Origin: a bacterium
GTDB taxonomy: Bacteria > Electryoneota > AABM5-125-24 > Hatepunaeales > Hatepunaeaceae
Length of the DNA stretch: 46,771 nucleotides
Direction: 5' to 3'
Assembly (NCBI GenBank): GCA_013202285.1
Contig: JABMRV010000057.1
Coordinates: forward strand, 1 to 46,771
This document shows positions 4,201 through 42,529 of this stretch, piece after piece. The notes beneath the pieces are model-generated. The model saw nothing but the letters and a program-made list of their open reading frames with translations. It was not told the origin of the DNA and searched no databases. Within the stretch, counting starts at the first letter, position 1, and the number at the start of each line of letters is the position of its first letter. Position numbers and translations under genes: made by a program.

Positions 4201-4785
4201 GTTTGCATCTCCTCCATAGGGATACGTCCAGAGGTTATTTCCGTCCCATGCCACACCGCAGGGAATATAACCAAGGTTGATAGTGGTTATCTGATTACCT
4301 TCGCGGTCGAGATTGATAAGTCTGTTCTGAGCATCGGTTGAGATCCATAAGGTTTCACCGTCCCAAGCTGCCGCCCAGGGTGTGAAATTGGTTCTAAAAT
4401 TACCAACAAACTCTTCCTCTTCGATATTCCAGAAGTAAACCTGGCTGTTGTCCCAATCGACGATGCACATTTCCTCTCCTACCCAAGCCATACCGCACCA
4501 TCCACGGTTGCGCTGACTATAGAAAGCCACTCTATCGCCGAAGTCGTCGCGCCTCGGACCGGGCGGGTGTCGCTCTTCATCCTCCGGAGTGGCAAATCTG
4601 ATCCTGAAGGAGACATCTATACCTCCATCATTACCAAGCGTCATTTCCACAGTTTCTTCTGCATCGACTTCCAAGGCGACTGCAACACCATACGGTGAGA
4701 GTGTTACATCGGCTTGTGCCGGATGAGAGTATAATACAATTAAAATCAATGTGATGAAGATGAGAAAAGAATTGTTTTTCAGCAT
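1246..4785 (-). CDS. T9SS-sorted secreted multi-domain protein, paralog of the giant ORF (propeller module, CarboxypepD_reg-like domain, second propeller-like region, GWN repeats, WGDDP module, T9SS C-terminal domain)
   Basis: The ORF track gives 1246..4803 from a TTG. An in-frame ATG at 4785 preceded by GGGAG gives MLKNNSFLIFITLILIVLYSHPAQA/DV, a clean signal peptide. The protein contains GPRRDDFGD followed by a propeller with WVPEHDTGHMW, HDSENIWY and VVIDDGIEEPRW, the same signatures as the giant ORF modules. It also has SRFSDDEGNYSIENLPLGDYELTF (CarboxypepD_reg-like) and ends in YPNPFNSTIRISY...SGIYLVRL...RIVLIK. It lies only 68 nt upstream of the LamG gene start, so the two are probably co-transcribed. 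Confidence 0.9.
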   Translation of the reverse strand: MLKNNSFLIFITLILIVLYSHPAQADVTLSPYGVAVALEVDAEETVEMTLGNDGGIDVSFRIRFATPEDEERHPPGPRRDDFGDRVAFYSQRNRGWCGMAWVGEEMCIVDWDNSQVYFWNIEEEEFVGNFRTNFTPWAAAWDGETLWISTDAQNRLINLDREGNQITTINLGYIPCGVAWDGNNLWTYPYGGDANLRRMTDEGEVLTTISCGNIRASACYAITWVPEHDTGHMWVISELGWLMQLNLDLENEEVQVVQEREFRTPGGTYGITHDSENIWYSIYSSADNQEWGWVVIDDGIEEPRWLLAEPNSGVIANDSEETFELLFNSTELEAGIYRMQILVELVEVEEERDDLSESLIEVSVIMSVDNDVADIVGVISCAAYHDLISGASIDLDPPVISRFSDDEGNYSIENLPLGDYELTFIASDFLPLTHEISLEEAGEYELDIALLHSVCLPSEENITWFLEPDMEETINFDVHNGGNGPLTYQIERRLLGEANAEPWQLRSMYNTEQMVEDDMINGVTFAEDHFYVSGGNNGGNPNMIYVFDNEGEQTGEFEQVHESRYGMRDLTYDGELIWGADDNVLYGYSLYGDHVETLEGEAQSYRSLTWDPENDWFWSADITSNIFATNREGNLVQTLNRPDDLRIYGLAYWLYDPDGHNLYVFSRTDEIDIAVYKINLDNGEAILVAEMEAAGSRPGGIHITNQFDIFNWVLMGIVQTPDRLGVWQLSERREWFQIDPEAGEIEAGGDQAFDLYLNSTDLPPDNRFEGELVFIHDGRGGYTHLPVRLDVQEGRIPWFRELNLNIGWNTVSLNFEPYDNDDIRELMSPLVEEDLLIMMKNGAGQFYIPEYDYNNILGWFAPQGYQLKMRSEAIFRLSGILVLSDDPIELTEGWHLISYYPRFPIETTIALSGIENNLIIAKDGHGNFYIPDWDFSNMGDMREGQGYYVNVDAFVNLIYRYERPDDEGAFASVPHFSVYDDPGQLPVHVVTGVNMSLLVLADQSLPAEIGVYTDGKLVGSGVLQNGVCGIAIWGDDPLTNEIDGALEGQSLEIRLLTDNGLTTPEYTVLAGETVYTTDGFAVVQLTASSAVPVKFGISSAYPNPFNSTIRISYSLNRGGFITLRLYDLAGREVANLVNERQSVGYYQTVLNAQDLSSGIYLVRLASGEQCHTQRIVLIK
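1249..1505 (-). other. T9SS type A C-terminal sorting domain (Por secretion tail pattern) of the 1,179-aa protein
   Basis: FGISSAYPNPFNSTIRISYSLNRGGFITLRLYDLAGREVANLVNERQSVGYYQTVLNAQDLSSGIYLVRLASGEQCHTQRIVLIK. This fits the canonical N-Y-P-N-P-F-N..T-x-I motif, the G-x-Y central motif and a terminal K. Family assignment is by pattern, not HMM. Confidence 0.8.
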
Positions 4786-4863
4786 TTTGGGCTCCCTGGT
4801 CAAGTGATGTTGTCGAGAAGAACTGAATGCTCTACGAGGTTTTAAAATGTGTGAAGTTTTTTG

Positions 4864-6504: not shown

Positions 6505-6512
6505 AAATCCTC

Positions 6513-9518: not shown

Positions 9519-9562
9519 TTTCGTTTCCTTTATATGTTGATGTAAGTCGAATTTTCAAGGTT

Positions 9563-12370: not shown

Positions 12371-12454
12371 ATGAAAAGATCAACAATCATTTCCCCGTGT
12401 TGTCTCTGTGCGGTATTGCTGCTAATAATAACGGCTCCGATTTTAGTCCGGGCT
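12371..12454 (+). other. Sec signal peptide of the giant protein
   Basis: Basic N-terminus (KR), hydrophobic core CAVLLLIITAPIL, and VRA/E cleavage-site pattern. Confidence 0.75.
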
Positions 12455-15400
12455 GAAATCCAGACCACTCCCAAGAGCAGTCATATTTCACCCGCGGATG
12501 AGACTTATTATCAGGAGGTAATACAACCGGCGAAAGCGAGGGGATTACTGACCGAAGCGCAGAATGCTTTCCTTAAACAATACAAGGCTCAACAACGAGC
12601 CGTAGCGAGTCGTATCGTCGATTTCCAGCCTCCATCCCGTGACAATCAGGGTGGACCTGACGAGTCGGGTTACGAATGGCGGGACAGTTACGAGAGACAT
12701 GGTCCGACATACGGCTGGATCGATGTCAGCGGATTCGACGGCGTAATCGACATCGGAATGGGTGACGACACAAACCACGGACCGTTCGACCTCGGCTTCG
12801 ATTTCGTGTATTACGGCGAGACTTTCAACTCAATTCGGATGTGCTCGAACGGCTGGGCATCCTTCACATACGACGGTAGTGACTATCGGTGGACCAATTA
12901 CAACGGATTCCCTGGTGAAGGGGCTCCTGCGAATTTTTTCGCGGTCTGCTATATGGATTATGACCCTGAACTCGGCGGCGGCAGCTACTATTACTGGTCG
13001 GACGAGAATATGGCGGTTCTGACCTGGGAGAACATCCCCTATATCGGCGATGAGAACCTGCGCTGGAGCTACCAGATGATCCTGACCCCGGACGGAATGA
13101 TAACGTACCAGTATGCACAGGTCAGCGGACCGGAAGATGAGATTCTCGTCGGTTTTCAGAATGCCGACGGCAGTCTGGGATTCGCAATTGCGATGGGACA
13201 GCAAGGCTACCTCGAAAATGGACTGGCGATTGGTATCTCGGACAACTGGGTCGATGAGAGGGATGTGAGTGAGGTGGGGTATTTTGATACAGATGGGATT
13301 TCATATCATGTCGCTGTTGCTGGAAACTATTCCTTTATAGCAGATGGTGAAAGTGGTCTTAGAATAATTGACATATCTAACCCTGAGAATCCCGACGAAT
13401 TAAGTTCCATAAATACACCAGATGTTGCTCGTGATGTTGCGGTTCTCAACAACTATGCTTATGTGGCAGATTTTAGTAGTCTTCGAATCGTTGACATTTC
13501 TGATCCGGCGAATCCATCTGAGGTTGGATCATACGATACACCAGGAAATGCTATGAGCGTTTCTGTTCGTGGAAATTACGTTTACGTTGCAGACCTCGAA
13601 AGCGGTCTTCGTATAATTGATGTATCCGATCCTGAAAATCCTGATGAAATTGGGTTTTTTGATACCCCTGATAGGGCGTGGGGTGTCACTGTGATAAATC
13701 ATTACGCATATGTGGCAGATGATCAGAGTGGACTTAGGGTGATTGACATTTCAGATCCGGAGAATCCGAGTGAGGTAGGCTCTTACAACACCCTAGGAAA
13801 TGCTGGTGATGTCATAGTTGTTGGTGATTTTGCCTATGTGGCTGATGGCAGAAGTGGTTTACATGTAATTGATATTTCTGACTCTCAAAATCCGAGCCTG
13901 ATAGGAACATATGATACACCAGGTGGAGCTGGTGATGTTACTGTCATCGGAAACTATGCTTATGTTGCTGATGATCAAAATGGTCTATGTGTAATTGACA
14001 TTTCTGATCCGAACAATATGGAGGAGGCTGATGCTTACGATACACCGGGAAATTCATGGGGTGTTTTTGTAATCGACGATTATGCCTACGTTGCAGATCA
14101 GGAAAGCGGTCTCCGCATCCTCGACGTATCGGACTTCGAGAAGCCGGACATGGCGTTGTCAACTAACCAATTGGACTTCGGTGAGGAGTGGGTCGGTTAC
14201 AGCGATGACATGATCATCGAAATCCGGAACAACGGCGACGCCGACCTGACCGTATCGGACGTTCATGTTGGGGCGGTCGGCTTCAGTACCGATTTTAACG
14301 GCTGGTTTGTTGTCGAACCGGATGGTGTTCATCAACTGACCGTCACTTTTGCGCCCGAAGGAACGGGCAATTTGGGGGGGGGGCTGACTATTATTTCGGA
14401 TAATCCCGGCTGGATAGAACAGGGCATGGTCGATTTGAACGGCATCGGCAGGGACAACCCGCCGGTGATGGTCGTTAATCCGGACGCTATCAGCACGGAT
14501 ATCAATATACCGGACAGCGAAGAGCACACGTTGACGATTTCCAATGGCGGTAGTTCGGTCCTTGAATTCGAGATCTTTCACAGGACAACCAGCAGACCTG
14601 CACGCGATGAAAATGTCCGTACATTACGCAGTATCACCTCCTCTAATTCACCCCTCCGAAACCCAGGGGAAGTAATCGATCTTTCCACTCCTGAAAACAT
14701 GGATGTGAGCGAGGTCGGTGCTCCACGTCGAGACCAGTTGGAACCGGGTTTCCTTGGTCGATACTACCACACCCAGGCAGATGCCAGTCCGCCGTTCCCG
14801 GGAGAGCTGATCATGGAGCGCATCGATGATCTGATCAACTTCGACTGGGGCGATGGCGGTCCTGGCGGCGGCGTGAGGAATGACAACTTCGGCGCACGTT
14901 GGACAGCCTTGTTCACTGTTGAGGAAGCCGGAGAATACACCTTCCGGGTAACCTCCGATGACGGTCAGAGGCTATATATCGACGGACAGCGGATCATCGA
15001 CAACTGGGTTGACCATGGCATGGAGAATCACGACATGGCACTCGACCTCGAACAGGGCGACCACGAGATTACGTATGAGTTCTACGAGAACAGTGGAGGT
15101 GCCGGGGCTCAGCTCCGCTGGATGCCTCCCGGGGAGGGTCAGTTCGAATTCATGCAGGGCTTCCCGTTTATCCCGTGGCTTACATGCGACCCAAACGAAG
15201 GCACCATCGAGGCTAATCAACAGATGGATATAACCGTAACCCTGATAACCGATGATCTTATCGAAGGCAGATATGAAGCAGATATCATTTTCCAGTCGAA
15301 CGATCCGCGATATGAAGAACAAGGTTTCCGCGTTCCTGTGGTGTTAAATACCACCGGTACAGCTCAGATTGAAACTGCTTGGGAACCCGGTTACTTTCAG

Positions 15401-18400
15401 GATCCACCTGTTGTCAATTATAACGTGCAATATGATCCTGAACTATATACGGGTTTCCCCTACCGGATACCGGTCACCATCAGCAATACAGGTAGCGCAG
15501 ACCTTGAAATATCCGGAATTGCATCCGATGAAGATGCCAATCCTGTATTCACTGCAGAACCCACTCAACTGACTATACCACCCGATAGACAGGAAGTTGT
15601 GGACTTCATCTTTAATGCTCCTTTGGATGCACCGGGTGAATACATTGCTGATATGATAATCAGTTCAAATGATGCTGATGAAGTCGATCGGGAATTACAT
15701 ATTCCGGTTTACGCCCAACCTCTCGCCGCTCCTGTAATCACGGTTAACCCAAACAGTATCGAAACAACTATTGACATTCCAAATGAGGAAGTACACACCC
15801 TGACAGTCACCAACGATGGAGGAGTAGGACTTGATTTTCTGATCGAACATACAATAATCCGTGAGCCGGATCGTGATGCGGCGACGCGGGGGTTGCGTAG
15901 AGTTGATCGAAAGAATGTGCCGCAGCGTGATAATCCGGGAGATGAGCTGCGGTCATACAACGTACCATACAATAGTACTTCAGGTCTGGCATGGGACGGT
16001 GAACTGATGTGGGGAAGCGCGTACAGCTCACAGAGGCTGTATGCCCTTGATCCTGAGAATGGTCAGGTTGTTTATGACGTGGCGGTAGGATATTCTCCTC
16101 TGGCGATGACCTTCGACGGCGAACTGCTCTGGGTTGGAGTCTGGCCGGGAAGCAATGTCCGGCTTTATGACCTCGAAGGCAACCAGGTTGAATCGATCAA
16201 CATGCCCTCCTCACCGGTTCACGGTCTGGCTTCAGACCTCGAGAATTACGTATTCCTCAATTCAAACCACACGATTCGGGTCCTCACAATTGACAATCGA
16301 CAGCAGGTCGGTTCCTTTAATCCCAGCGGGGCGATGGCGAATCAGGATTTCTGGAATATTCTGTGGGTGCCCGAGCATCCCGACGGACAACTCTGGGGAC
16401 TGTATCAAAACCGGATGTACCAGGCTTTCGTTGACGAAGATAACAACTGGGCATCCCAGGCTGTTCAGAATTTCGGCATCCGCACAGAATATCAACATGA
16501 CGGTATTGCTCACGATGGTGAAAACATATGGTACGGCATGTGGAGTCCGACAACATGGTATGTGATTGATGATGGTGTTGAAGAATTACGCTGGCTTACT
16601 TACGAGCCGACTGAAGGTTCGCTCGGTTCTGATGAAAGTATGGACATTACCGTTACACTCAATACTGAGGGACTGATCCAGGGCATCTATGAAGCTGACA
16701 TGATCTTCCGGTCCAACGATCCGCAGTATAACGAAGAAGGACTGATTGTTAACGTCCTGATGAGCACTGTTGGAGAGGTGCAAATAGATGTGAGCTGGGA
16801 ACCCGGCTTCGGTGACAATCCACCGGTGGTGGATTTCAACCAGCAGTTTGATCCGGGTTTGTTCACCGGCATCGAGTACCGAATCCCTGTCTTGATTGCC
16901 AATACAGGTAACGCCCACCTGGAGATTACCAACATTGCATCTGACGAACAGGGAGAACCTGTTTTCACCGCTGCTCCCACCGAGTTGATCATCCCGCCCG
17001 ATGGTGAGGAAGTCGTCGAGTTCATCTTCGCCGCACCTCTCAATTCGCCGGACAACTACAACTTCGACATGATAATCTATTGTAACGACATTGACCAGGC
17101 TGACCAGGAGTATCATATCGGTCTGCATGCTGAAGTTGATCTGCCCCCGGTAATAACCGTAACCCCGGATTTGATCGAGGATGAGCTGATCACCGGTGAA
17201 TCGGCACAGCATCAGGTAACACTCGGTAACGACGGTCCATCGACGCTCTGGTACACCAGCGATGCTGTAGTTACCGATCAGCCCGGGAGGGATGTCAATG
17301 AGCGCACTTTGCGGGAGGTTAAACTTACGGGACCGCGCCGTGACAACCTGGGTGATCAGATTGCCACGTTCACCTGGAATCGTGCTCCGGTCAATTATTA
17401 CAAGGCTGGCGCTTCCTATGACCCGGAGACCGGTCGGATGTGGGTTTCAACTTACATCCCCAACTGGCTGGGCGCCATAACCTTTGATGAAGAATACCAG
17501 GAGTTCACTGAGGATGTTCAATCCTGGCAACCCGGTGCACAGAATCCGATGAACATCGCCTGGCTGGACGGCGTTCTATATGTCGTTGCCTGGTCGAACC
17601 AGTGGATCGGCAGGTGGGACGCCGACCGCACCAACCTCGGCAATCTCGACATGCCGCGACATCCAACCGCTATAACGTCCAGCCAGGAAAATGGCTGGTT
17701 AATAACAATTTCTGATGCGGATTGGAACAATCTGAACTTCTATACAGTAAATGGAGACCAGGTGAGCGAGATCCATCGCGTCAACTGGCGGCAGGGACCG
17801 ACAGCCAATCAGCTCAGTCGTGGAATTGGCTGGGTTGACAAACACGATGAAGGTCAGATCTGGATTAACACTCTCAATCACATCTACCAGATGTATGTTG
17901 ACACTGAAAACTGGGATCAGACTGCCACGCATGTCTCCGACTTCGCCTGGAATAACGGCAATCACCAATGGGCTGGAGTGGGTCATGATCGTTTCAACCT
18001 TTGGCTGGGAGCTTACGGACAGCCAAACTGGATTATATATGACGACGGCATTATGGAGCTCTACTGGTTTGACTGGGATCCGCAGGAGGGCTCTATCGAG
18101 CTGGACGGTGAGGAGATCATAACGATTTTCCTGGATGCGGCTGGATTAAACGAAGGTCTTTATGCGGTCGACCTGCATATTCTCTCGAATGATCCCGATA
18201 GTTCCGACGTGGTGGTTCCCGTTTCGATGAATGTGATCGGGATGGCACATATTGATGCGGTATGGGCGCCAGGATTCGATCAGGATCCCTCGGTCGTCGA
18301 TTATAACGTCATGTTCGATCCGAATCTGTTCACCGGTTCGGAATACAGGATTCCCGTTACCATCTTGAATCTGGGAACGGCGAGGCTGGACATATCCGAT

Positions 18401-21400
18401 ATTTCTTCCAGCGAAGAAGCCAATCCCATGTTTACCGCCGAACCTCTCGAACTGCAGATCGCTCCGGGTGAGGAAGATGTTGTCGATTTTATCTTTGCCA
18501 CACCTCTGGATTCTCCCGATGATTACAACTTCGATATGATAATCTATAACAATGATGTCGATGAGGCAGACCGGGAGTATCACATTGCCCTGCATGCCAA
18601 TGTTAACAGACCACCGGTGATCTCGGTCAACCCGCAGGAAGTTATCGATGAGTTGAGTACCGGCGCGGTTGCTCATCACGAGATAACCGTCGATAATCAG
18701 GGTGAGTCGCTGCTGTGGTTTATTGCTGAAATAGATGTAACAGGTGAACCCCAGCGAGATGCCGGCATGAGACCTTTGCGGCGAGTCGGCAGTGCTGCCG
18801 GAACCGGTCGCGACCGCCGGGTCGAACCAGACGACATGGGCTATGAGTGGCGCGACAACCTCGAGGATGACGGTCCGGAGTACGAATGGCTCCTTCGTGG
18901 CGATTTCGAAAACGTACGCGAATGGTCTCTGGGCGATGACGCCAACACCGGCGCACTCCAGCTTGGTTTCACCTTCCCATTCTGGGATCAGGAGTATAGC
19001 CAGGTTTATCTCGACACCGACGGCTATATGTCGTTCACCTATGCGGGGACGCAGTATAACTTCTCAGGAGAGATTCCAAATTACCCGTTGGCTGCCAATC
19101 CGGGAAGCCCAAACCACTCCATGATAGCGCAGTACCAGACCGACATGACGTCGGGAACGGAGATATGGTACTGGACTAACGAGGAAGATATGGCGGTGAT
19201 GTGGTGGGCGGGGAATCATCAGTACTATCACCAGGTCATCCTCTATGACAATGGTTATGGTGTCATGCAGTACGGTCAAAATGCCAACGGCAGATCAGCC
19301 TACGTGGGGATTAACCTCGGCGACGGCGAACATGGCTGGTATGTCGCCGCGCCTGACCAGAATTACCTCGTTCCCGGGCGGGCAATTGCCTTTGGTCCGG
19401 CTAACGTCTGGTCGATCTGGATAACACTTGACCCGCTGGAGGGCGATGTACAGCCCGGAGCTGATCCGATGGCGCTCGATATGACTCTCGATGCCTTCGG
19501 TCTCGATGAAGGTCAATACACCGCGGAAGTTCTGTTCACATCGAACGACCCGGAGACGCCCGGGGTGATACTCAACGTTACTATGAATGTAATAGGTGCA
19601 CCTGACATCCTTCTCGAATGGGAACTCGGCTGGGTGGAAGATCCCTTTGAGGACAGCATCATCGACTGGAACGCTTATTTCGATCCCGATTTATATTCTG
19701 GTTTCGATTATGAAATTCCTGTCACTGTAACAAACGAAGGCGTAGTTCCTCTTGAGATTACTGAAATATCATCAAGTGAAGGTGGAGACCCGCTCTTTAC
19801 ATCCAATCTAATTGATGTGCTTACTCTCGATCCGAATGACCAGGCAGTCGTCACCCTCACATTCAATTCCGTGAATCCAGGCGACTTCGGAGCCGATGGT
19901 GATGAGCTCTATATGGTATTCTACTCCAACGATCCGCTTGATCCGGAGGTCAACGTTCGAGTGCATGCGCAACCGGTTGGACCACCTGTAATGGTTGTGG
20001 ATCCTGATGCAATCCAGACCGAGATTGCTATACCCGGCAGTGAAGAACATGTCCTTACGGTGACCAACAGTGGTGATAATATCCTTACCATCGAGATCGA
20101 AAAGGAGATCCTCGCCATGCCGGAGAGGATGCCCGCAGATCGCGACGTAATCTCCCGTACACTGCGCAGCGTTAACCGCGATGAACCTCGTCGAGATGCT
20201 CTTGGTGACCAGTTGGGAGAATATACCTGGAATAATGCACCGATCAACAGGTACAAGAATTGCGCTTACGACTATAATAACAAGTGGATGTGGCTCGGTA
20301 CTTATAGCACGAACTGGATCAAGGCAATCTCGTTCGATGATGATTATCAGCAATTCACTACCGAATTCAACGACTTCCGACCTGCCGGAAACCCGATGGA
20401 TATGGGCTGGTATAACGGTATCCTCTATGTCCAGCCCTGGGCTAACAACTTCTTGCTAAGATACGATGCCGATGGTAACAATCTCGGCAACGCCAACTTT
20501 AACTTCCGTCCTGCCGGAGTGGCGTTCAGCCACAAGATGGGTTTGATTTTCGCGCTGGAGGACTCACCAGACAACAACCGGAACATCCATGTTATGGAGA
20601 TAGATGAAAACGGGTATCCAGATCAGCAGATCGGTTTGATCGACAACTACCGTCCGATGTGCAACAACCAGTGGATGCGTAACGTCGAATGGGTCGATGC
20701 ACATCCCGATGGTCAGTTGTGGATACACACCTCCTCGAGGGCGCTCTATCAGATCTCGGTTGACACGGATAACTGGCAGGCGATCGAGCTCACTTCACAG
20801 TTGTCCAACTTCGGCAGCAACCAGGAGTACGACGGAGTTGCGCACGACGGGTACAACCTGTGGCACGGCGGTTATAGCCTGGATCGCTACTACATCATCG
20901 ATGATGGGGTTGAAGAGATTTACTGGCTGATATTTGAACCTGATGAGGCTACTCTTAACGCTGACGATAGTACCGAGATTCACGTTTATCTTAACACTGA
21001 GGATCTCATTGAGGGCAGATATGAAGCCGATCTTGTATTCACCTCAAACGATCCGCGATACCAAGCGGAAGACTTCCGGGTCAATATCGTATTGAATACC
21101 ATTGGAGAAGCCCAAATTGAAGCGACCTGGGTTCCCGGCTGGGATGAACAGGATCCGGTCGTCGATTACAATGTCGCGTTTGATCCCGACATGTTCAGCG
21201 GCGCTTCATATACGATTCCGGTTATTATCGCGAATATTGGCAATGCCAATCTTGAGATAACGAACATCCAGTCGGATGAAGGTGGAGCTCCGGTGTTTAC
21301 CGCAGAACCTACCGAACTTGTGATCCCACCAGACAACGAAGAAATCGTCGTATTCAGATTTGAAGCTCCCATCGATGCACCGAACAACTACAATGCCGAC

Positions 21401-36400: not shown

Positions 36401-39400
36401 TCACCCGGTCTTTACAGCGCCAGTCAGACTCCACTCATTGAGATTCTAATTGATGATGCCGGTATAGGCGTGAGCGACGGTCAGGGTGAGAACGAGAGGC
36501 TTGGTATCGAGATGACCTTCGACGGTGATTGGATTAATGATTTCACTTTCGAGAATGACCTTGTTTCTTACCAGGTGCAGGACACCCTGACCGAAGGTGA
36601 GCATCTCATATCCATCTCTGCCGTCGATCGTCTCGGTAACTCCAATGAGCAACCGGTTATCTTCAGGTTCTTGGTTGATAGTGAGCCGCCAAACGCAGAG
36701 CACACCTGGTTCAGCCAGGAGGAAGTCGATTCAATATCCAACCGTAAACCTCCGATAACCATTGCAGTACACGACCCTCGTCCTTCGAGTCAGATAGATG
36801 AGGAATCAATATACCTCGCCCTCGATAATGAACCACTTGATTTCGATTGGGTCAGTTTGGACGGAGAGACTGGTTCGCTGACCTATACGTTTGCTGAAGA
36901 TGATTCGCTTGACTTGGGAACCTACGTACTTTCCATAGAGGTTGCGGATCTGGCTGGCAACAGTTTCGCCGCTTCCGGTCGATTCTGCATCACCGAAATA
37001 CAGGATGTAAATCCGCCTTATTTTAGTAACTTCTTCCCACCACCAAGTACAGTTGCAGGCGGCGGCGCCAGGGCGGAAGAAGGCGGTGGTGTAGATGCTG
37101 ACACAATCGCATTTATCATCGGCGATGATGACTCCGGGGTGGATGAAGAGACAGTCTGGGTGATGATAATTGCCCTCAACGACCCCGATGATCCGAGAGA
37201 CAACGACACGACCATCTATGAAGGGGAAGACCTGTTTCTGTCACCGCAGGGACATGCGAGAGTTCCTGTAATGAAACGGCTTGGTGGACTGGCTGATAAT
37301 ATGCCCTCCGAGATGCCCGGACTTGAGGAAGGCTTGAACGAGATTAATGTCTTTGGCGCAGACGATGATGGTAACGAAGGAGGAGAACAATGGGGCTTCT
37401 TCTACGATGATACACCTCCCGATGCACCTCAGTTGGATGAGCCCGAGAACCAGTATGTGAACAGTGACGAATTGACCGTCACCGGTACGACCGGAGGAGA
37501 CTCTCCCGAATACGAGGAGGATTACGAAAACGAAACGGAAGTCCTCATCTACCTGAATGATGAGCTTGCAGCCACCATCGATTCCGATTGGGACTCTGAG
37601 TTCAGTGCAAATCTGACACTCACTGAGGGCGATAACACTATTTACGCTGTTGTTGTTGACGCCGGCGGTAACGAATCAGATCCCAGCAACTCCCTGGAGA
37701 TATTCTTCGACCTTTCCGAGCCTGAAATCGATGATTTCACCGCGGTGAATGGACCCCACCTGGCGACAGGAACTCCGTCGTTTACGGCAACGGTGAACGA
37801 TCAGGGCAGCGGTATCGACGAAGAAAACATAAGCCTTACAATCGGTGAGGCATTGGAAGTGCCGGTGCAATACAATGCGGAGGAAAACCTTCTGACCGCC
37901 CAAGTGAGCCAGGACGACGAACTTGAAGATGGCGAATACACGGCTAATCTGGTAGTTCACGACTTCGCGGGTAATACCGACTCCTCAGATTACGAGTTCG
38001 ATATAGACACCGCACCGCCCGATCCGCCGATAGTGGTGAGCTTTGAACGATACACCGGTATTAACAGGGTGTCGCTTACCGGTGAAGGTGAGATCGGAAC
38101 AGATGTCGTCGTATTCCTTGATGACGAGGAGATTGGCGAGATCCAGCTCGCCGATGCAGTTGAGTTCGAGTTCCAATACACAGCTCAGTCTCTTCCTGAT
38201 ACATCTTATGTCACATTGATAGCAGTCGATGCAGCTGAGACCGAGAGTGATCCAACAGATCCGGAAATGTTGGTCGTCGATACTGACCCTCCGGAATTCA
38301 GCCATACTTCCCCGTACCATGGCGAGATGGTTGAAGCGGAAACTCTAAGTGAGGTCACACTGTTTATCGACGACCCTATTTCGGGAATTGACGCAAATGA
38401 GTTTGAATTTACGCTGCGCGGTGATCCTTTCAACTTTATCAGTACTGAGACGGACAGCGGTTACTGGCTTACGGCGGATGTAAGCGAGGTTGAATTCAAC
38501 AACGATGAAACAGTTGAAGTAACTGCTTCCGCCTGTGATGTGTCATCTCCGGCGAACCTGGGTCAGTTATCCTGGGAATTCATCACCCATTTCAACCAGG
38601 CTCCTGAAGTTCTGCTGCCCGACACCAGCTTCAATGAAGATGAGCAGCTGACTCTCGACATGCATGACTACATCTCCGACAGCGATAACTCCTTCGATGA
38701 ACTTGAGCTGGTAGAGCAGATCCTCGACAACGAAGAATATGCAAATCTTATCTACGACGCTGAGGAAGGCTTCCTGCATCTGTTTGCCGAACCGGACTGG
38801 TTCGGTGACCTGGAGTTGACTGTTCAGGCAACAGATCCGGAAGAAGCTGCCGGTGCTGATACTGCAGCCATCGAAGTTGTGCCGGTGAATGATCCACCGA
38901 GTTTCCAGGATGTTCCTGAAGATGCCTCTATCTTCGTAGGTGAGGAATTTGCTATGCAGCTCAACGCGGAGGATATCGATCCCGATGATGAACTCATATT
39001 CATGTCCAACACCGAGTTGTTCGACGTCGGGGAGAACGGTCAGATACTGTTCACTCCAAGCGATGAAGAACAGGGTCTGCATGTAATCGAATTCTACGTG
39101 TTCGACTTGGAGAACGCCGGTGACACAACCTTGTTCCATCTATATATTACCCTCGAAAACCAGCCGGTTGAACTGATCGGACAGATCGGGGATATCGAGA
39201 TTGACGAGGACGCCGAATCGCTCCTGTTCGTCGATCTGGACGATATATTCGAGGACGCCGATGTGGATACCATCAACTTCCTCATCGAATACGACAGCGA
39301 TGGTATCCTGATCGAAATAGACCTGGAAACAAATGAAGCAACTCTAAATCTCGATCCTGATTTCAACGGCGAGGTTAATGTTACGATAACCGCCGATGAC

Positions 39401-42400
39401 CTGAAAGGATCACAGGCTTCTGACGAGTTACTGGTGAACGTTCTATCGGTGAACGATCCTCCGCGACAGGTAGGCTTGCTGCCCTATTATATCCTGACCT
39501 ACGAAGGTGATGGAGAAGTGATCATCGCTCGTATGGACACTGTGTTCATCGACGTCGATGAGGGGGAGATCGTCTATGATTGGGATGATACCGAGCATGT
39601 CAATGTTGAAATGGACGAAAACCTGGTGCTGAGTGTCATTCCCGCAGACGACTGGACGGGCATCGAATCGTTTATCCTGACAGTGGAGGATGGAATTAAT
39701 CCCGGAGAACGAAATCCGCAGCGTGATGCGGCGACGCTCATAGAGATAACCATCGACGTTCAGCCTGTAAATGAGCCGCCACAGGCGCTAATCGACGATC
39801 CTTATGCAATCGAAATGCTGGAGGATCAGGAACCGCTGGTTATTCAGCCTCCGATCTCCGAGATGTTCATGGATCCCGATCCCGGTGATCAGATCGAGAT
39901 TACCTGGGATGTTCTCGACGGTCCGATCGAACTGTCATTCGATCAGAACGAAGAATATCTCGTCGCTACCATCATTGAGGAGAATTTCAACGGCAGCTTT
40001 GACTATCCGATTACCGCTGGCGATTGGCTAGGCGAGACTGTAACCGTAACGCTAGCGTTCACGGTTCTGGCAGTAAATGACCCGCCGGAAGTAATCCAGG
40101 CGATAGCGGATGTTGAAGTCGATGAGGACGCCGATCCGCGCCGGATTGAGATCGTCGATCTGGATAATATATTCATCGACATCGATGGCGACGATCTGAT
40201 ATTCACCTTCGAAGGCGATCCCGCGCTTCTCAACATGGATGTCGATGAAGATAACATGTTGTTCTTCACCGCTGCGGATAATTTCAATATCCCTGATGGC
40301 GTTGAAATCACTGTCTATGCGGACGATGGTCACGATCAACAGCTCGGAGGAATCTTCGGTCGGGGCGACCCAACCGCAGAGGATGCCTTGCGCGATGCTG
40401 GGCCAGTAAGGGTATTGCGTACAGCCCATGATCCTCAAGAAATAACAGACCGAGATTCGACGCAGGAACGGCAGTTGCGTTCTGTCGATTATTTGTGGAA
40501 GCCGACTGAAGTCGGCTCTCCCGGTTCTACTCTATTTAATCAACCTCGTCGTGATGATGCAGTGAGTACTTCGTTTGTCCTCACCATCAATCCGGTCAAC
40601 GACCCGCCAGTGGTTGTCAACCCAATCGGTGATGTTGAGATCGATGAGGACTACGGAGTCCTTGAAGTCGCCGACCTGAATGATGTCTTCGAAGACCCTG
40701 AGGGTGATGAACTCACCTTCGCAATTCTCGAGGGTATTGAAGAATTGAACCTGACTATCGACGAGGAAACCGGAGTTCTGACACTTGAACCGGCATCGAA
40801 TTATAACGGTGAGTCAGAAGTTGTTATCGCGGCTGACGACGGACACGGTGAGGTCAGGATCTCCTCTACGGTTCAATTCAATGATGGACTGCGGCAGTCC
40901 CGACTTATTCGGGATGGTATGATGCAGCGTGCCATCAGGCGCGTGAAAGTCGCTGATACTGAACGAACGCCAAGCCGTGACCTCGCTGTCGATGACCGGT
41001 TCATGGTCAACATTATTCCCGTCAACGACCCGCCCGGATGGGAGGATACGCATGGTGACAGCATTGAATTCGTGGTAACCGATCTGATAAGCTTTGAGCT
41101 GACAGCATTCGATATCGACGGAGATGATCTCTCAATAACGTTCGACGATCGCAACGGCATTCCTGAAGCTGCGGATTTCACAGATCATGCGGATGGTACG
41201 GCGTCATTCTACTGGCAAACCGGTTATGATGACGATGGCGTCTATGACCCGCTGTTCCGTGTTTCAGATGGCTCCCTCTCCACCCTATTGGGAATCAGGA
41301 TCATTGTTTCGGGAACGCGGGAACAGGTGATAAGCCTGGGTGAAGGCTGGAACATCGCTTCGCTGAACATCGAACCTGCCGAGGAATTCTGGAGCGATGG
41401 CGAAGACCGCGGTCCGGATATCTACTTGATGCTGGAAGCGTTCGTCAACGATAATGACGAACAACTTCTCTTCCTGATAAAGGATCAGAACGGCGATTTC
41501 TGCCTGCCGTCCTGGGATTTCTACGGCATTGATTTCTGGAACACTCAGCATGGCTACTGGATCAGCATGGACGCCGCTTGGGACGCAAGCTGGTACGGAT
41601 CGCCGATACTGGCTTATGCACCGATTGATATAACAGCGGGTTGGAATATAATTCCCTACTATCCCATATACGACCTTGATGCCAGTGAGGAGAGCGATTA
41701 TTATGTTCTTTCTCCAATCATTGAGCATGTACTGAGTGCCAAGGATGCTGTGGGTAACTTCATGTCTCCGGTCAACAACTTCTCGAACATGTCGCCATGG
41801 ACGCCTGGACAGGGCTATCAGCTCAGGGTCGATGAGAATATTACCCTGGAGTATCCTGAACCGCTGGATGAGGCAGGAGTGCGCACTTCATCGGATGTGA
41901 CAGACGGACGCTGGACTGCACCGGTGGCAACGGGTGAGAACATGAGTGTACTGATCAATTCACTAACCGATCATTATTCTTCTGATGGCAACCAGATAGC
42001 TGCCTTCAGTCGATCATCGGGTCGTCTCGTCGGCGTCGGCATAGTTAACGAAGGCTCCTGCGGACTTGCAGTATGGGGTGATGATCCTTATACAGAAGAA
42101 AAAGAAGGATTGTCGGATGGAGATGAGTTCAATCTGGTTCTCTGGAATACCGACAGCGGGGAAGAACTCAACCTGGCACCATTAACCTGGCACATTGGCA
42201 GCGGATTGAACTATACCGCAGATGAGCTAATCGTTCTCGATGCAGTCGTAGAAATTCCGATACCGGATGATTTCTCGCTGTTCCGGAACTACCCGAACCC
42301 GTTCAATCCATCCACACGGATAGGTTTTGAATTGCCGCGAGAGTCAGATGTGACACTGTCTGTTCTTGACATTTCCGGTCGTCTGCTCGAAGTCATAGTC

Positions 42401-42529
42401 TCAGGCACTTTACCAGCGGGACATCACAACGCCACATGGAGTGCTGATAACATGCCGACCGGTGTTTACATCTTCACTCTGGAAACTGAAGGAGTTAAAC
42501 TGGTTACAAAAGGTGTGCTGATTCGATAG
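12371..42529 (+). CDS. Giant (10,052 aa) T9SS-sorted mosaic surface protein / putative adhesin
   Basis: A single ATG..TAG frame of 30,159 nt. It opens with the signal peptide [29 protein letters not shown]. Recognisable domains run throughout (sub-features below), and it ends in a T9SS tail. A strong rho-independent terminator lies about 110 nt downstream. Confidence 0.93.
   Translation: [10052 protein letters not shown]
12650..13245 (+). other. NIDO-like module, copy 1 of 4
   Basis: [28 protein letters not shown]...[29 protein letters not shown]...[19 protein letters not shown]...[17 protein letters not shown]...GLAIGIS. The same roughly 190-aa pattern recurs at about 18825, 28040 and 30731. 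The NIDO resemblance is my pattern judgement. Confidence 0.55.
13265..14145 (+). repeat. Seven tandem LVIVD repeats (period about 42 aa), predicted beta-propeller
   Basis: [13 protein letters not shown] / [13 protein letters not shown] / [13 protein letters not shown] / [13 protein letters not shown] / [13 protein letters not shown] / [13 protein letters not shown] / [13 protein letters not shown], each preceded by [NDG]-[YF]-A-Y-V-A-D. This is the LVIVD repeat signature. Confidence 0.85.
14146..14590 (+). other. ASH / choice-of-anchor-D-like Ig domain plus a short Ig-like domain
   Basis: [42 protein letters not shown]...[32 protein letters not shown], then [38 protein letters not shown]. 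Confidence 0.7.
14374..14383 (+). repeat. G10 homopolymer inside the giant ORF (codons L668-G671)
   Basis: aat ttG GGG GGG GGG ctg. This is the longest homopolymer I saw inside a coding region in the window. Confidence 0.95.
14738..15150 (+). other. PA14 domain
   Basis: [13 protein letters not shown]...[62 protein letters not shown]...[25 protein letters not shown]. This is the classical PA14 motif set. Confidence 0.85.
15940..16590 (+). other. Unassigned beta-propeller-like payload module, copy 1 of 6
   Basis: [12 protein letters not shown]...[11 protein letters not shown]...[31 protein letters not shown]...[11 protein letters not shown]...[12 protein letters not shown]. Confidence 0.6.
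17355..18065 (+). other. Unassigned beta-propeller-like payload module, copy 2
   Basis: [30 protein letters not shown]...[11 protein letters not shown]...[13 protein letters not shown]. Confidence 0.6.
18825..19400 (+). other. NIDO-like module, copy 2
   Basis: [20 protein letters not shown]...[27 protein letters not shown]...[15 protein letters not shown]...[17 protein letters not shown]. Confidence 0.55.
20205..20925 (+). other. Unassigned beta-propeller-like payload module, copy 3 (close duplicate of copy 4)
   Basis: [63 protein letters not shown]...[12 protein letters not shown]. Confidence 0.6.
21690..22405 (+). other. Unique alpha/beta-type payload module (flavodoxin/GATase1-like sequence pattern, function unknown)
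   Basis: [14 protein letters not shown]...[33 protein letters not shown]...[15 protein letters not shown]...[16 protein letters not shown]. It occurs once in the protein. The fold guess is weak. Confidence 0.35.
23175..23895 (+). other. Unassigned beta-propeller-like payload module, copy 4
   Basis: [63 protein letters not shown]...[13 protein letters not shown]. Confidence 0.6.
24690..25405 (+). other. Unassigned beta-propeller-like payload module, copy 5
   Basis: [30 protein letters not shown]...[12 protein letters not shown]...[13 protein letters not shown]. Confidence 0.6.
26160..26875 (+). other. Unassigned beta-propeller-like payload module, copy 6
   Basis: [30 protein letters not shown]...[12 protein letters not shown]...[13 protein letters not shown]. 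Confidence 0.6.
28040..28620 (+). other. NIDO-like module, copy 3
   Basis: [30 protein letters not shown]...[27 protein letters not shown]...[19 protein letters not shown]...[18 protein letters not shown]. Confidence 0.55.
30731..31310 (+). other. NIDO-like module, copy 4
   Basis: [31 protein letters not shown]...[27 protein letters not shown]...[19 protein letters not shown]...[18 protein letters not shown]. Confidence 0.55.
31830..32345 (+). other. Single-copy module of about 170 aa, unknown family (possibly a beta-sandwich)
   Basis: [47 protein letters not shown]...[25 protein letters not shown]...[11 protein letters not shown]. I recognise no motif here. Confidence 0.3.
32360..33235 (+). 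repeat. Three cadherin-like / He_PIG-type Ig domains
   Basis: Units are bounded by [10 protein letters not shown] and [10 protein letters not shown], with internal D.D.D...L........LP....F.D.G.G...F.W.P...D.G.Y.....V.D patterns. Confidence 0.65.
33236..34660 (+). repeat. Three copies of an unassigned WGDDP module of about 115 aa, with one ASH domain (about 33610..33935) between copies 1 and 2
   Basis: [43 protein letters not shown] / [42 protein letters not shown] / [42 protein letters not shown]. Confidence 0.55.
34660..35825 (+). repeat. Four cadherin-like / He_PIG-type Ig domains
   Basis: Units are separated by [16 protein letters not shown] and NANLPPRI. Internal patterns include [34 protein letters not shown] and [13 protein letters not shown]. 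Confidence 0.65.
35821..38590 (+). repeat. Nine bacterial Ig-like domains of two alternating types
   Basis: Type 1 occurs 6 times: P..........P.I.A.I.D..SGID/SGVD...I.L.......Y....G.L......L.EG.H.....V.D.AGN. Type 2 occurs 3 times: ..ITGSAEP...V.L...........D..GN......L.EG.N.I.A...D.AGN.S.P. Confidence 0.6.
38595..41320 (+). repeat. Eight cadherin-like repeats, mostly ending in VNDPP/VNEPP (tandem-95-like), two of them He_PIG-like
   Basis: The repeat-terminating motifs [40 protein letters not shown] and IIPVNDPP recur. Acidic D.D.D stretches are typical of Ca-binding cadherin-like folds. Confidence 0.7.
41320..42266 (+). other. Conserved C-terminal cassette (two GWN..KD..G.F..P.WDF repeats plus a WGDDP module) shared with the 1,179-aa paralog
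   Basis: [13 protein letters not shown]...[46 protein letters not shown]...[72 protein letters not shown]. The paralog has the same order at about 1506..2375 (-). Confidence 0.6.
42267..42526 (+). other. T9SS type A C-terminal sorting domain of the giant protein
   Basis: [87 protein letters not shown]. Confidence 0.85.

What the first reader, a model, noticed from the sequence alone, without database searches (positions are those of the whole stretch)
12371..42529. One uninterrupted 30,159-nt ORF encoding a 10,052-aa T9SS-sorted mosaic protein
A single frame runs from the ATG to the TAG across 64% of the window. It opens with a Sec signal peptide and closes with a YPNPFNPSTRIGFEL...GVYIFTLE...KGVLIR tail, the T9SS type A sorting pattern. 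By hand I can delimit roughly 85 modules. The design is regular: Ig/ASH spacer triplets carry non-Ig 'payload' modules (4 NIDO-like, LVIVD propeller, PA14, 6 unassigned propellers, 1 alpha/beta module). A stalk of cadherin-like, Ig-like and VNDPP repeats follows, then an anchoring cassette. Several payload families are ones I cannot name. Proteins of this size are rare, and this one is organised like a string of exchangeable cassettes rather than a monotonous repeat protein.
Basis: partly seen in the sequence, partly recalled or inferred. Interest (0 to 1): 0.8.

Follow-up and report, generated by a model that had tools for sequence, protein, structure and literature searches.

The report
Giant modular T9SS surface protein
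The 30-kb reading frame is real and encodes a 10,052-residue secreted surface fibre of an uncultured Calditrichota-like bacterium; it is an extreme member of a lineage-specific family of modular surface proteins, and the unusual point is that its binding heads appear to be inserted inside immunoglobulin-like domains.

Summary
Window 12371-42529 (+) is one stop-free ORF of 10,052 codons. It has a Sec-type N-terminus and a C-terminal domain that passes the curated cut-offs of PF18962 and TIGR04183 (T9SS type A).

A stalk of cadherin-like, Big_13-like and VNDPP repeats follows, then a terminal cassette.

One refinement: the "Ig triplets" are one complete ASH Ig plus the two halves of a second ASH Ig split by the payload. 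Eleven payloads look nested in Ig domains, giving about 73 domains rather than 85. This rests on sequence tests only; the AlphaFold test failed.

The protein is not unique. P is a family of at least 786 cluster representatives. In the genome scan it appeared only in Calditrichota/Electryoneota MAGs, where P, N and U are shuffled between Ig domains and many proteins end in X110-CTD. A 1,185-aa paralogue lies in the same window.

Best reading: a T9SS-exported, multivalent surface adhesin or binding fibre. It is a new variant of a known kind, of moderate interest. T9SS machinery and read support could not be tested.

The parts
12371..42529 (+). Whole ORF, 10,052 aa, ATG to TAG.
12371..12454 (+). 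Sec-type signal peptide, aa 1-28 (MKRS / hydrophobic core / VRA|E). No lipobox.
   Evidence: Read from the sequence. No predictor was run.
12623..13255 (+). N1, the first copy of the N module (aa 85-295). It is the only copy not nested in an Ig.
   Evidence: Own HMM, 4 copies with E 1e-97 to 1e-104. A 14-sequence profile hits the N-terminal region of a RemA-family protein, PDB chain 8gl6_D, at E 9.5e-5. Pfam NIDO is sub-threshold.
13256..14137 (+). LVIVD beta-propeller, seven 42-aa repeats (aa 296-589).
   Evidence: PF08309 at 292 bits with 7 stretches. The 42-aa register is shown and the DNA repeat family D4.
14138..31825 (+). Cassette array (aa 590-6485). 17-18 complete ASH/HYDIN-type Ig domains alternate with 11 ASH Ig domains that each carry a nested payload.
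14768..15145 (+). PA14 payload (aa 800-925), nested between Ig halves 710-743 and 935-996.
   Evidence: PF07691 at 79-80 bits. Halves tested.
15920..16624 (+). P1 propeller payload (aa 1184-1418).
17333..18097 (+). P2 propeller payload (aa 1655-1909).
18794..19414 (+). N2 payload (aa 2142-2348).
20186..20956 (+). P3 propeller payload (aa 2606-2862). This is the copy that was modelled.
   Evidence: AF2 pLDDT 83.2, pTM 0.83. Foldseek against PDB.
21653..22396 (+). U payload (aa 3095-3342). Single copy here, with no curated family.
   Evidence: Two stand-alone homologues. No Pfam, NCBIfam or PDB sequence match. 12 near-full-length copies in related MAG loci.
23153..23923 (+). P4 propeller payload (aa 3595-3851), 79% identical to P3.
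   Evidence: DNA repeats D1/D2.
24671..25435 (+). P5 propeller payload (aa 4101-4355).
26138..26902 (+). P6 propeller payload (aa 4590-4844).
28004..28633 (+). N3 payload (aa 5212-5421).
30701..31330 (+). N4 payload (aa 6111-6320).
31826..32362 (+). Y module (aa 6486-6664). Single copy, no family.
   Evidence: No relative found in the JGI metagenome scan.
32363..41323 (+). Stalk (aa 6665-9651): 8 cadherin-like/Big_9, 3 X110, 1 ASH, 8 Big_13-like and 6 VNDPP repeats, plus Arg-rich linkers.
41324..41929 (+). Z module (aa 9652-9853). No family.
41930..42250 (+). Last X110 module (aa 9854-9960), the conserved partner of the CTD.
   Evidence: X110(-X110)-CTD ends 19 related loci and the paralogue in this window.
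42290..42526 (+). T9SS type A C-terminal sorting domain (aa 9974-10052).
   Evidence: PF18962 at 29.4 bits against 27. TIGR04183 at 29.9 against 23.
1246..4803 (-). Small paralogue, 1,185 aa: signal peptide, half Ig, P, CarboxypepD_reg, X110, type A CTD.
   Evidence: TIGR04183 at 42.8 bits. Own HMMs: P at E 9e-27, X110 at E 3e-12.

Best explanation
The ORF is a real gene for a giant cell-surface fibre of an uncultured Calditrichota/Electryoneota-type bacterium (FCB superphylum).

**Export (inferred from the established T9SS pathway).** The protein crosses the inner membrane by Sec. The type IX secretion system recognises its type A C-terminal domain and moves it across the outer membrane. As for other type A cargo, the CTD is then probably removed and the protein tethered to the surface.

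**Layout (shown by domain mapping).** The X110 module sits just before the CTD and forms the conserved base. About 3,000 aa of cadherin-like, Big_13-like and VNDPP beta-sandwich repeats form a stalk. The distal 6,400 aa display 13 non-Ig heads:
- N1 and a 7-bladed LVIVD propeller at the tip.
- 11 further heads (PA14, six small P propellers, three N modules, one U module).

**Nested heads (sequence evidence only).** Each of the 11 heads is inserted into a loop of an ASH-type Ig domain, and these alternate with complete ASH Ig domains. On this reading the Ig rod runs on uninterrupted and the heads project sideways.

**Function (inferred).** Multivalent binding of polymers, particles or other cells. 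This rests on three points:
- PA14 is a carbohydrate-binding module.
- N is related to the head region of RemA-family lectin adhesins.
- Propellers are typical ligand-binding platforms.

**Size (inferred).** With about 57 beta-sandwich domains in series at roughly 4 nm each, the fibre would be on the order of 200 nm long.

**Family.** The gene is the largest member seen here of a lineage-specific multigene family built by shuffling payload-in-Ig cassettes.
For: **Real gene**
- 10,052 stop-free codons, P about e^-482, while the other frames hold 156-747 stops.
- Every domain hit lies in this one frame.

**T9SS cargo**
- The CTD passes both curated cut-offs at the extreme C-terminus, and the N-terminus is Sec-like.
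- A second CTD protein lies in the window.
- 19 related loci end in a CTD.

**Nested payloads**
- In the spacer alignment, each payload is preceded by the first third and followed by the last two thirds of an ASH Ig.
- All 11 joined halves align to the protein's own ASH HMM as one stretch, positions ~13-97. They score 4-14 bits above the C-half alone, and the swapped-order control breaks into separate hits.
- 8 of 10 joined halves match Pfam HYDIN_VesB_CFA65-like_Ig, and a ninth matches only BACON_2. Each match is a single stretch across the junction; 4 of the HYDIN matches pass the gathering cut-off.
- Stand-alone homologues P0001, P0152 and P0153 read signal peptide, N-half, payload, C-half.

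**P is a propeller**
- AF2 pLDDT 83, pTM 0.83, all-beta.
- Foldseek gives E 2e-9 to 4e-7 and TM 0.5-0.65 to 5-bladed glutaminyl cyclases, YjiK and NHL.

**N module**
- The profile matches RemA-family chain 8gl6_D, aa 51-206, at E 9.5e-5. This improved from 0.002 with a deeper profile.

**Family**
- The P profile finds 786 representatives at E<=1e-3, many with several copies.
- All 65 GTDB loci lie in 13 Calditrichota/Electryoneota-type MAGs (PMC9324843).
- Architectures shuffle P, N and U between ASH Ig domains.
- A 15-kb open frame with 10 P copies occurs in a metagenome contig.

**Extracellular signature**
- pI 4.05 and K 0.4%, shared with the other CTD protein (K 0.8%). Cytoplasmic neighbours have K 4-8%.
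Against: - No T9SS core gene could be searched for in the source genome. The window holds none, and I found no paper linking Calditrichota with T9SS.
- The C. abyssi genome paper reports no Bacteroidetes-type gliding machinery (PMC5317091).
- The nested-Ig topology rests on sequence only. The AF2 model of a whole N2 cassette was low-confidence (pLDDT 52) and its fold search was meaningless.
- The binding function is inferred from domain types. No ligand is known for P, N, U, Y, Z or X110.
- The nearest structural neighbours of P are enzymes (glutaminyl cyclases).
- Relative P0004 carries an S8 peptidase-like region and a parallel beta-helix-like repeat region. I read these from its sequence and did not scan them.
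- No reads or independent assembly of this gene were available.
Confidence: 0.7

Rival explanations
1. Assembly artefact. The ORF is inflated or chimeric because repeated cassettes of one or several family genes were mis-joined or collapsed in a metagenome assembly.
For: - The source genome appears to hold many paralogues; related MAGs have up to 16 loci each.
- A 71-nt exact repeat and 80-86% identity over ~700 nt link P3 and P4, 2,967 nt apart.
- No reads or second assembly were available.
Against: - All other module copies are only 28-38% identical, so there are few shared k-mers.
- The frame and domain boundaries stay intact through about 73 domains.
- The order is coherent: tip, array, stalk, base, CTD.
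- Independent MAGs and metagenome contigs carry open frames of the same design over 6.8-15 kb.
Confidence: 0.08
2. Enzyme-display scaffold or polyprotein. The payloads are mainly catalytic (for example cyclase- or hydrolase-like) rather than adhesive. The conserved Arg-rich junction motif may be a processing site that releases or activates individual units after export.
For: - The best structural matches of P are glutaminyl cyclases.
- 141 P copies keep polar residues conserved: two His, several Asp, one Glu.
- Relative P0004 has an S8 peptidase-like head in the same scaffold, read by eye.
- The lineage is described as proteolytic, with many secreted S8 proteases (PMC9324843).
- The motif R[DE]-x(2-9)-R-x-[LI]-R sits at the N-terminal junction of all 11 nested payloads: 14 hits against 0.1 expected.
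Against: - Identity to the cyclases is 10-13% with TM only 0.55-0.65, similar to non-enzymatic NHL/WD propellers.
- No enzyme family HMM hits any part of this protein.
- PA14, LVIVD and NIDO-like domains are binding-type modules.
- Cleavage at one junction of a nested domain would not release it.
Confidence: 0.15
3. Gliding-motility adhesin. The protein would be a SprB/RemA-type mobile adhesin propelled along the cell surface by the T9SS/gliding motor.
For: - It is type A CTD cargo.
- The N module is related to the N-terminal region of a RemA-family protein.
- It is very long and repetitive, like SprB (own knowledge).
Against: - The genome paper on the only cultivated relative reports flagella and type IV pili but no Bacteroidetes-type gliding machinery (PMC5317091).
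- Electryoneota MAGs encode flagella (PMC9324843).
- Apart from the N module there is no similarity to SprB or RemA. SprB-type cargo normally carries a type B CTD (own knowledge).
Confidence: 0.07

Closest known systems
T9SS type A cargo adhesins of Bacteroidota (Flavobacterium johnsoniae RemA/RemZ; SprB as the giant example)
   Same: - Sec signal peptide plus a C-terminal type A sorting domain above curated cut-offs.
- A long chain of beta-sandwich repeats carrying lectin-type heads.
- The N module matches aa 51-206 of the RemA-family chain 8gl6_D at E 9.5e-5.
   Different: - The host is outside Bacteroidota (Calditrichota/Electryoneota-type).
- At 10,052 aa it is larger than SprB (about 6,500 aa, own knowledge).
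- The heads are nested in ASH Ig domains.
- Most payload families (P, U, Y, Z, X110) have no curated model.
- The cultivated relative is reported to lack the gliding machinery (PMC5317091).
Giant repetitive Ca2+-dependent surface adhesins exported by T1SS (LapA, SiiE, MpIBP-type) and other very large extracellular proteins (for example Giant1-5 of Apilactobacillus kunkeei, PMC12863079)
   Same: - A rod of tandem Ig/cadherin-like repeats with ligand-binding modules distal to the cell.
- Very acidic composition.
- Weak hits to Ca_tandemer and tandem-95 repeat models.
   Different: - The export signal is a T9SS CTD, not an RTX/T1SS signal.
- The binding modules are spread along 6,400 aa and inserted in Ig domains, not clustered at one end.
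- Repeats have diverged to 28-38% identity rather than being near-identical.
ASH / HYDIN / choice-of-anchor D Ig-like domains (PF15780, PF22544, NF012200)
   Same: 17-18 complete copies pass the curated cut-offs.
   Different: Eleven further copies are interrupted at one fixed loop (own-HMM positions ~38-46) by inserts of 190-270 aa. I know of no described array of this kind, but I ran no literature search for one.
PA14 as an inserted domain in GH3 beta-glucosidases/xylosidases
   Same: PA14 here also sits as an insert inside another domain. The NCBIfam Xyl3A model aligns only over its PA14 insert region. That PA14 is an insertion module is own knowledge (Rigden, Mello and Galperin 2004).
   Different: The host domain here is an Ig-like sandwich in a fibre, not a glycosidase catalytic domain.
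Five-bladed beta-propellers (plant/bacterial glutaminyl cyclases 2iwa, 3nol, 3mbr; YjiK 3qqz) and NHL propellers
   Same: The AF2 model of P matches them at Foldseek E 2e-9 to 4e-7 and TM 0.5-0.65. A sequence profile gives weak NHL hits at E about 0.01.
   Different: - 10-13% identity.
- No Pfam or NCBIfam hit.
- P has its own conserved motifs: PxRD..GD, WV..H..G.LW, HDG.N.W, DDG..E..W.

Membership tests
T9SS type A cargo | C-terminal sorting domain (TIGR04183 / PF18962) at the extreme C-terminus, above the curated cut-off | tested here: met
   TIGR04183 at 29.9 bits against 23, aa 9974-10047. PF18962 at 29.4 against 27.
T9SS type A cargo | N-terminal Sec signal peptide | tested here: met
   By inspection only: MKRS, a 20-residue hydrophobic core, then VRA|E. 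No signal-peptide predictor was available.
T9SS type A cargo | T9SS machinery (SprA/Sov, PorV, PorU, PorKLMN/GldKLMN) in the same genome | not testable with these tools
   None of the 7 flanking complete genes is a T9SS component. The source genome is not among the GTDB representatives (best match 61%). Indirect support only: a second CTD protein in the window, and CTDs in 19 related loci.
T9SS type A cargo | CTD removal and surface attachment after export | not testable with these tools
   This needs experiment.
LVIVD repeat beta-propeller (PF08309) | Tandem 42-aa LVIVD repeats above the gathering score | tested here: met
   292 bits against 20.2, 7 stretches. The 42-aa register is shown.
PA14 (PF07691) | Match above the gathering score | tested here: met
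   79.4-80.4 bits against 24, aa 807-924.
NIDO (PF06119) | Match above the gathering score over most of the profile | tested here: not met
   3 of this protein's 4 copies (4 of 14 family members scanned) hit only profile positions ~79-120 of 186. The window copies score 13.6-17.6 bits against 25, and the best family E-value is 5e-4. "NIDO-like" is a lead, not membership.
RemA-family adhesin N-terminal region | Significant sequence similarity to the N-terminal region of RemA/RemZ | tested here: inconclusive
   The 14-sequence profile hits 8gl6_D aa 51-206 at E 9.5e-5, 25.5 bits. That region is not resolved in the structure, where only the CTD is seen (PMC10994853), so the fold cannot be compared. 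The AF2 model of the N cassette failed.
ASH / HYDIN / choice-of-anchor D Ig | Matches above curated cut-offs | tested here: met
   PF22544 up to 167 bits per 1,000 aa, PF15780 up to 140, NF012200 at 213.6 against 45. 17 complete copies by own HMM.
Domain-in-domain (nested) architecture | The two flanks of each payload together form one complete host domain | tested here: met
   At sequence level only. 11 of 11 joined flanks align as one stretch to the ASH HMM and the swap control fails. Pfam matches run across the junction in 9 of 10, 8 of them to HYDIN. The structural test was inconclusive.
Bacterial cadherin-like / Big_9 / Big_13 repeats | Matches above gathering scores in the stalk | tested here: met
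   Big_9 at 73.9-94.1 bits against 23.6, Cadherin_4 at 51-54 against 25.1, Cadherin_5 at 49.5-57.6 against 26.5, Big_13 at 75.7-86.5 against 27. NF012211 tandem-95 stays below its cut-off, 54.8 against 90.
Glutaminyl cyclase (five-bladed propeller) | Family-level sequence match and conserved active site | tested here: not met
   There is fold resemblance only: TM 0.55-0.65, 10-13% identity. No Pfam or NCBIfam hit. Active-site residues were not compared.

The most novel reading that the evidence does not exclude
The family would be a combinatorial surface-display system. A payload inserted in an ASH Ig domain would be a self-contained, portable cassette, marked by the conserved junction motif RD-x-R-x-LR...PRRD. 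Such cassettes would be copied and swapped between dozens of paralogues, and possibly moved by small rolling-circle replicons. The cell would then carry a repertoire of fibres with different orders and sets of binding heads, and this 10,052-aa gene would be the extreme product of that process.
Probability: 0.2. Interest if true: 0.7.

Novelty: new variant of a known kind. Interest (0 to 1): 0.45.

Why it matters
Giant T9SS-sorted adhesins are known, so the size and the sorting signal alone add little. Four things would be worth knowing.

1. **A regular array of 11 nested Ig domains.** Such an array would give a simple structural rule for building a rigid rod with side-mounted heads.
2. **Six unannotated module families.** P, N, U, X110, Y and Z make up much of the surface proteome of Calditrichota/Electryoneota, yet have no curated model. 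P alone has at least 786 cluster representatives. Defining them would improve annotation of these widespread sediment bacteria.
3. **X110-CTD as a conserved base** for T9SS cargo outside Bacteroidota.
4. **Near-absence of lysine** in these exported proteins, which points to a strong, unexplained constraint on the extracellular proteome of a protein-degrading lineage.

Tried and rejected
- **AF2 of a whole N2 cassette** (aa 2078-2412, 5-row alignment) gave pLDDT 52 and pTM 0.43. Its Foldseek search returned only meaningless matches at TM <= 0.16. It yielded no structural proof of nesting and no fold for N.
- **Exact-protein look-ups of two neighbours** found nothing on record.
- **The word-indexed protein search** found only 1-2 relatives per module. 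The exhaustive profile search found 786 for P, so the low counts were a sensitivity limit, not rarity.
- **A metagenome scan with the single-copy Y module** found nothing. The second scan, with the P profile, gave only 5 loci.
- **U, Y, Z and X110** had no Pfam, NCBIfam or PDB sequence match, even with deeper profiles.
- **Literature searches** for Calditrichota plus T9SS returned nothing.
- **The Rep protein of the 4.4-kb circle** has no relative in the plasmid, phage or IMG/VR collections.
- **Promoter and terminator scans** gave only consensus-level matches near background. One is a terminator-like hairpin at 42785-42809, about 260 nt after the stop.
- **Horizontal transfer** was considered and set aside as the reason for the higher G+C of the gene (about 0.51 against 0.44-0.48 in the flanks). 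The lysine-poor, Asp/Glu/Gly-rich composition may account for it; this was not tested.
Full report
**1. The observation**

The window holds one ORF at 12371..42529 on the + strand, 10,052 aa, starting at ATG. My own translation shows a single stop at the end (TAG), an in-frame stop just upstream ending at 12361, and no ambiguous bases. At this base composition the chance of 10,052 codons without a stop is about e^-482. The other five frames across the same span hold 156 to 747 stops.

**2. Could it be an assembly artefact?**

The internal repeats are old.
- Copies of the same module are 28-38% identical in protein.
- The best DNA repeats are 80-86% over 300 nt.
- The exception is P3/P4: 79% protein identity and a longest exact shared stretch of 71 nt at 20753 vs 23720, spaced 2,967 nt apart.

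A repeat-mediated gain or loss of that one unit cannot be excluded without reads. Wholesale collapse or chimerism is unlikely, for two reasons. About 73 domains keep their frame and boundaries, and the order is coherent (tip, array, stalk, base, sorting signal).

No independent copy of the gene was found.
- Exact look-ups of two neighbouring proteins returned nothing.
- The best match among 185,579 GTDB species representatives is 61%.
- The JGI metagenome collection holds no relative of the single-copy Y module.

**3. Curated models**

Pfam and NCBIfam scans of the protein in overlapping 1,000-aa pieces gave these matches.

| Model | Score | Cut-off | Position |
|---|---|---|---|
| LVIVD (7 stretches) | 292 bits | 20.2 | aa ~296-589 |
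| PA14 | 79-80 bits | 24 | aa 807-924 |
| ASH / HYDIN / choice-of-anchor D Ig | NF012200 up to 213.6 bits | 45 | aa 590-7190 |
| Big_9, He_PIG, Big_13, Cadherin_4, Cadherin_5 | above gathering scores | - | aa 6700-9650 |
| PF18962 (sorting domain) | 29.4 bits | 27 | extreme C-terminus |
| TIGR04183 (sorting domain) | 29.9 bits | 23 | aa 9974-10047 |

**4. Domain map**

HMMs built from the protein's own repeats give this map.

| aa range | Module |
|---|---|
| 1-28 | Signal peptide |
| 85-295 | N1 |
| 296-589 | Seven LVIVD repeats |
| 590-7189 | 17 complete ASH Ig domains, plus a weak one at 5691-5801 |
| 800-925 | PA14 |
| 1184, 1655, 2606, 3595, 4101, 4590 (starts) | P1-P6 |
| 2142, 5212, 6111 (starts) | N2-N4 |
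| 3095-3342 | U |
| 6486-6664 | Y |
| 6665-9651 | Stalk: 8 cadherin-like, 3 X110, 1 ASH, 8 Big_13-like and 6 VNDPP repeats |
| 9652-9853 | Z |
| 9854-9960 | Fourth and last X110 |
| 9974-10052 | CTD |

**5. The main refinement: payloads nested in Ig domains**

Aligning the spacers shows that every payload is followed by the last two thirds of an ASH Ig. One complete Ig comes next. The first third of another ASH Ig then runs into the next payload. I tested whether the two partial pieces around a payload are halves of one domain.
- Joined in silico, all 11 pairs align to the protein's own ASH HMM as one stretch, positions ~13-97. They score 4-14 bits above the C-half alone. Joined in swapped order, they break into separate hits.
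- Against Pfam, 8 of 10 joined pairs match HYDIN_VesB_CFA65-like_Ig, and a ninth matches only BACON_2. Each match is one stretch across the junction, and four of the HYDIN matches are above the gathering score.
- The inserts are 190-270 aa and always sit at the same loop.
- Small stand-alone relatives have the same layout of signal peptide, N-half, payload, C-half: P0001 with P, and P0152 and P0153 with U.

The "Ig triplets" are therefore one complete Ig plus one Ig with a nested payload. The total is about 73 domains, not 85.

The structural test failed. AF2 of a whole N2 cassette gave pLDDT 52 and a meaningless fold search. The nesting claim therefore rests on sequence.

**6. The payload modules**

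*P.* AF2 with an 8-row alignment gave pLDDT 83.2 and pTM 0.83, all beta. Foldseek against the PDB gives five-bladed glutaminyl cyclases (2iwa, 3nol, 3mbr), YjiK and NHL propellers at E 2e-9 to 4e-7, TM 0.5-0.65 and 10-13% identity. "Unassigned propeller" is right. Across 141 copies the conserved positions form the motifs PxRD..GD, WV..H..G.LW, HDG.N.W and DDG..E..W. That pattern points to a conserved polar site of unknown role.

*N.* Pfam NIDO appears only below threshold, covering a fifth of the profile. Three of this protein's four copies hit it, as do 4 of 14 family members scanned. A 14-sequence profile hits PDB chain 8gl6_D at aa 51-206 with E 9.5e-5, improved from 0.002 with four sequences. 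The depositors call that chain RemA. The paper identifies it as RemZ (Fjoh_0803), a homologue of the gliding lectin adhesin RemA, with only its CTD resolved (PMC10994853). The link is therefore by sequence only.

*U, Y, Z and X110.* None has a Pfam, NCBIfam or PDB sequence match.

**7. The family**

The exhaustive profile search with P found 786 cluster representatives at E<=1e-3 and 158 at E<=1e-30. Many are 2,000-6,900 aa long with up to nine matched stretches of the P profile. The word-indexed search found only two, which was a sensitivity limit.

The top hit, P0004, is a 5,080-aa fragment. It has the same cassettes behind what reads by eye as a subtilase-like region and a parallel beta-helix-like repeat region.

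In GTDB, all 65 loci lie in 13 MAGs. They are labelled Calditrichaeota, Caldithrix, AABM5-125-24 or Ca. Hatepunaea meridiana. Ca. Hatepunaea meridiana belongs to Ca. Electryoneota in the FCB superphylum (PMC9324843). One MAG holds up to 16 loci.

Annotated with my HMMs, these loci show P, N and U in many different orders between ASH Ig domains.
- 28 of 65 loci are open across the whole ~6.8-kb locus.
- 19 end in X110(-X110)-CTD.

A metagenome contig carries a 15-kb open frame with 10 P copies and one U. The closest relatives align collinearly to aa ~1575-4100 at only 35-39% identity, with payload swaps; L009 has U where this protein has P2.

The window's other CTD protein (1246-4803, minus strand, 1,185 aa) is a small paralogue. 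Its layout is signal peptide, half Ig, P, CarboxypepD_reg, X110, CTD.

**8. Mechanism**

*Shown:* the Sec-type N-terminus, the type A CTD, the domain order, the nested-Ig sequence signature, the propeller fold of P, and family membership.

*Inferred from the established T9SS pathway:*
- Sec export.
- Recognition of the CTD by the SprA/PorV translocon.
- CTD removal and surface tethering.

*Inferred from domain types:* multivalent binding through PA14, the propellers and the RemA-like N modules.

*Inferred from general Ig-domain dimensions:* a fibre on the order of 200 nm.

The T9SS is described as unique to the FCB superphylum (PMC12421860, abstract as listed), which fits the host. I could not search the source genome for the machinery. 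The C. abyssi genome paper reports no Bacteroidetes-type gliding genes (PMC5317091), which argues against a SprB-like motility role.

**9. Unexplained features**

- *Lysine.* The protein has 43 lysines in 10,052 residues (0.4%) and pI 4.05. The other CTD protein has 0.8% K and the homologues 0.2-1.4%. Cytoplasmic neighbours have 4-8%.
- *Junction motif.* The motif R[DE]-x(2-9)-R-x-[LI]-R occurs 14 times against 0.1 expected. It sits once at the N-terminal junction of each of the 11 nested payloads and three times in stalk linkers. In most cases a (G)P(R)RD element follows about 8-20 aa later.

**10. Verdict**

This is a real, very large, T9SS-type surface protein. It is a new variant of a known kind, and its interest is moderate. 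Size and sorting signal are not new, since over 41,000 proteins above 5,000 aa are in UniProtKB (PMC11573180). The points of interest are the regular payload-in-Ig design, the set of unannotated module families and the combinatorial family behind it.

Noticed in passing
window 1246-4803 (-): A second T9SS type A cargo of 1,185 aa (TIGR04183 at 42.8 bits). It is a small paralogue of the giant: signal peptide, half Ig, P propeller (aa 83-320), CarboxypepD_reg, X110 (aa 1013-1091), CTD. It has K 0.8% and pI 4.14.
   Followed up: yes
L001-L004 (Logan SRR25617327, SRR25640004, SRR25582507, SRR25617371): A contig of 4,434 nt (4,377 nt in the fourth sample) recovered in different rotations from four samples. 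Three of the four copies have a 30-nt terminal overlap, which gives a 4,404-bp circle. It encodes a Rep_1 (PF01446) rolling-circle protein with a weak IS91 zinc-finger hit. It also carries about 2 kb homologous to giant aa 5093-5446 and 6002-6567 (46-55% protein, 63-69% DNA identity), as ORFs of 327 and 351 aa without signal peptides. The Rep has no relative in the plasmid, phage or IMG/VR collections. It may be a mobilised fragment of a family gene.
   Followed up: partly
window 12371-42529 and 1246-4803; homologues P0001-P0004, P0152, P0153: Extreme lysine depletion in the exported proteins: 0.4% in the giant (43 K in 10,052 aa), 0.8% in the paralogue and 0.2-1.4% in the homologues. The cytoplasmic neighbours have 4-8%. 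Asp+Glu is 18% and Cys 0.3%. The cause is unknown.
   Followed up: partly
giant aa 745, 1164, 1640, 2129, 2591, 3084, 3580, 4084, 4574, 5151, 6055, 9341, 9361, 9514 (first at window ~14603): A conserved Arg-rich junction motif, R[DE]-x(2-9)-R-x-[LI]-R, followed in most cases by (G)P(R)RD. It occurs 14 times against 0.1 expected, once before each nested payload and three times in stalk linkers. Arg is 12.1% in these junctions against 3.8% overall. The role is unknown; a processing site or an electrostatic latch are possibilities.
   Followed up: partly
window 20138-20814 vs 23105-23781: A comparatively recent duplication inside the gene. P3 and P4 are 79% identical in protein and 80-86% in DNA, with a 71-nt exact repeat spaced 2,967 nt apart. 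This is the one place where a short-read assembly could have gained or lost a unit.
   Followed up: partly
window 1-1245 (-), runs off the window start: A partial ORF of at least 406 aa with a signal-peptide-like start (MKIAVSIFVAMFLLLALPDSLHAG) followed by YALEFDGNNDYVSLDH. From memory this resembles LamG/concanavalin-type lectin domains. It was not scanned.
   Followed up: no
window 5466-6137 (-) and 6513-8222 (-), 8271-9518 (-): A two-component cluster next to the giant gene. It holds a dCache sensor histidine kinase (569 aa), a short 223-aa HisKA-only ORF that lacks an ATPase domain hit, and a fusion of a cytidylate-kinase-like domain with a receiver domain. No link to the giant gene was tested.
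   Followed up: no
P0004 (5,080-aa fragment from the representative library): The closest large relative carries the same P/N cassettes. They sit behind what reads by eye as a subtilase-like segment and a parallel beta-helix-like repeat segment, so some family members may display enzymes on the same scaffold. Its domains were not scanned.
   Followed up: no
window 12001-42000 vs flanks: G+C is about 0.50-0.53 across the giant gene, against 0.44-0.48 in the flanking genes. The Lys-poor, Asp/Glu/Gly-rich composition may explain this rather than foreign origin. It was not tested further.
   Followed up: no
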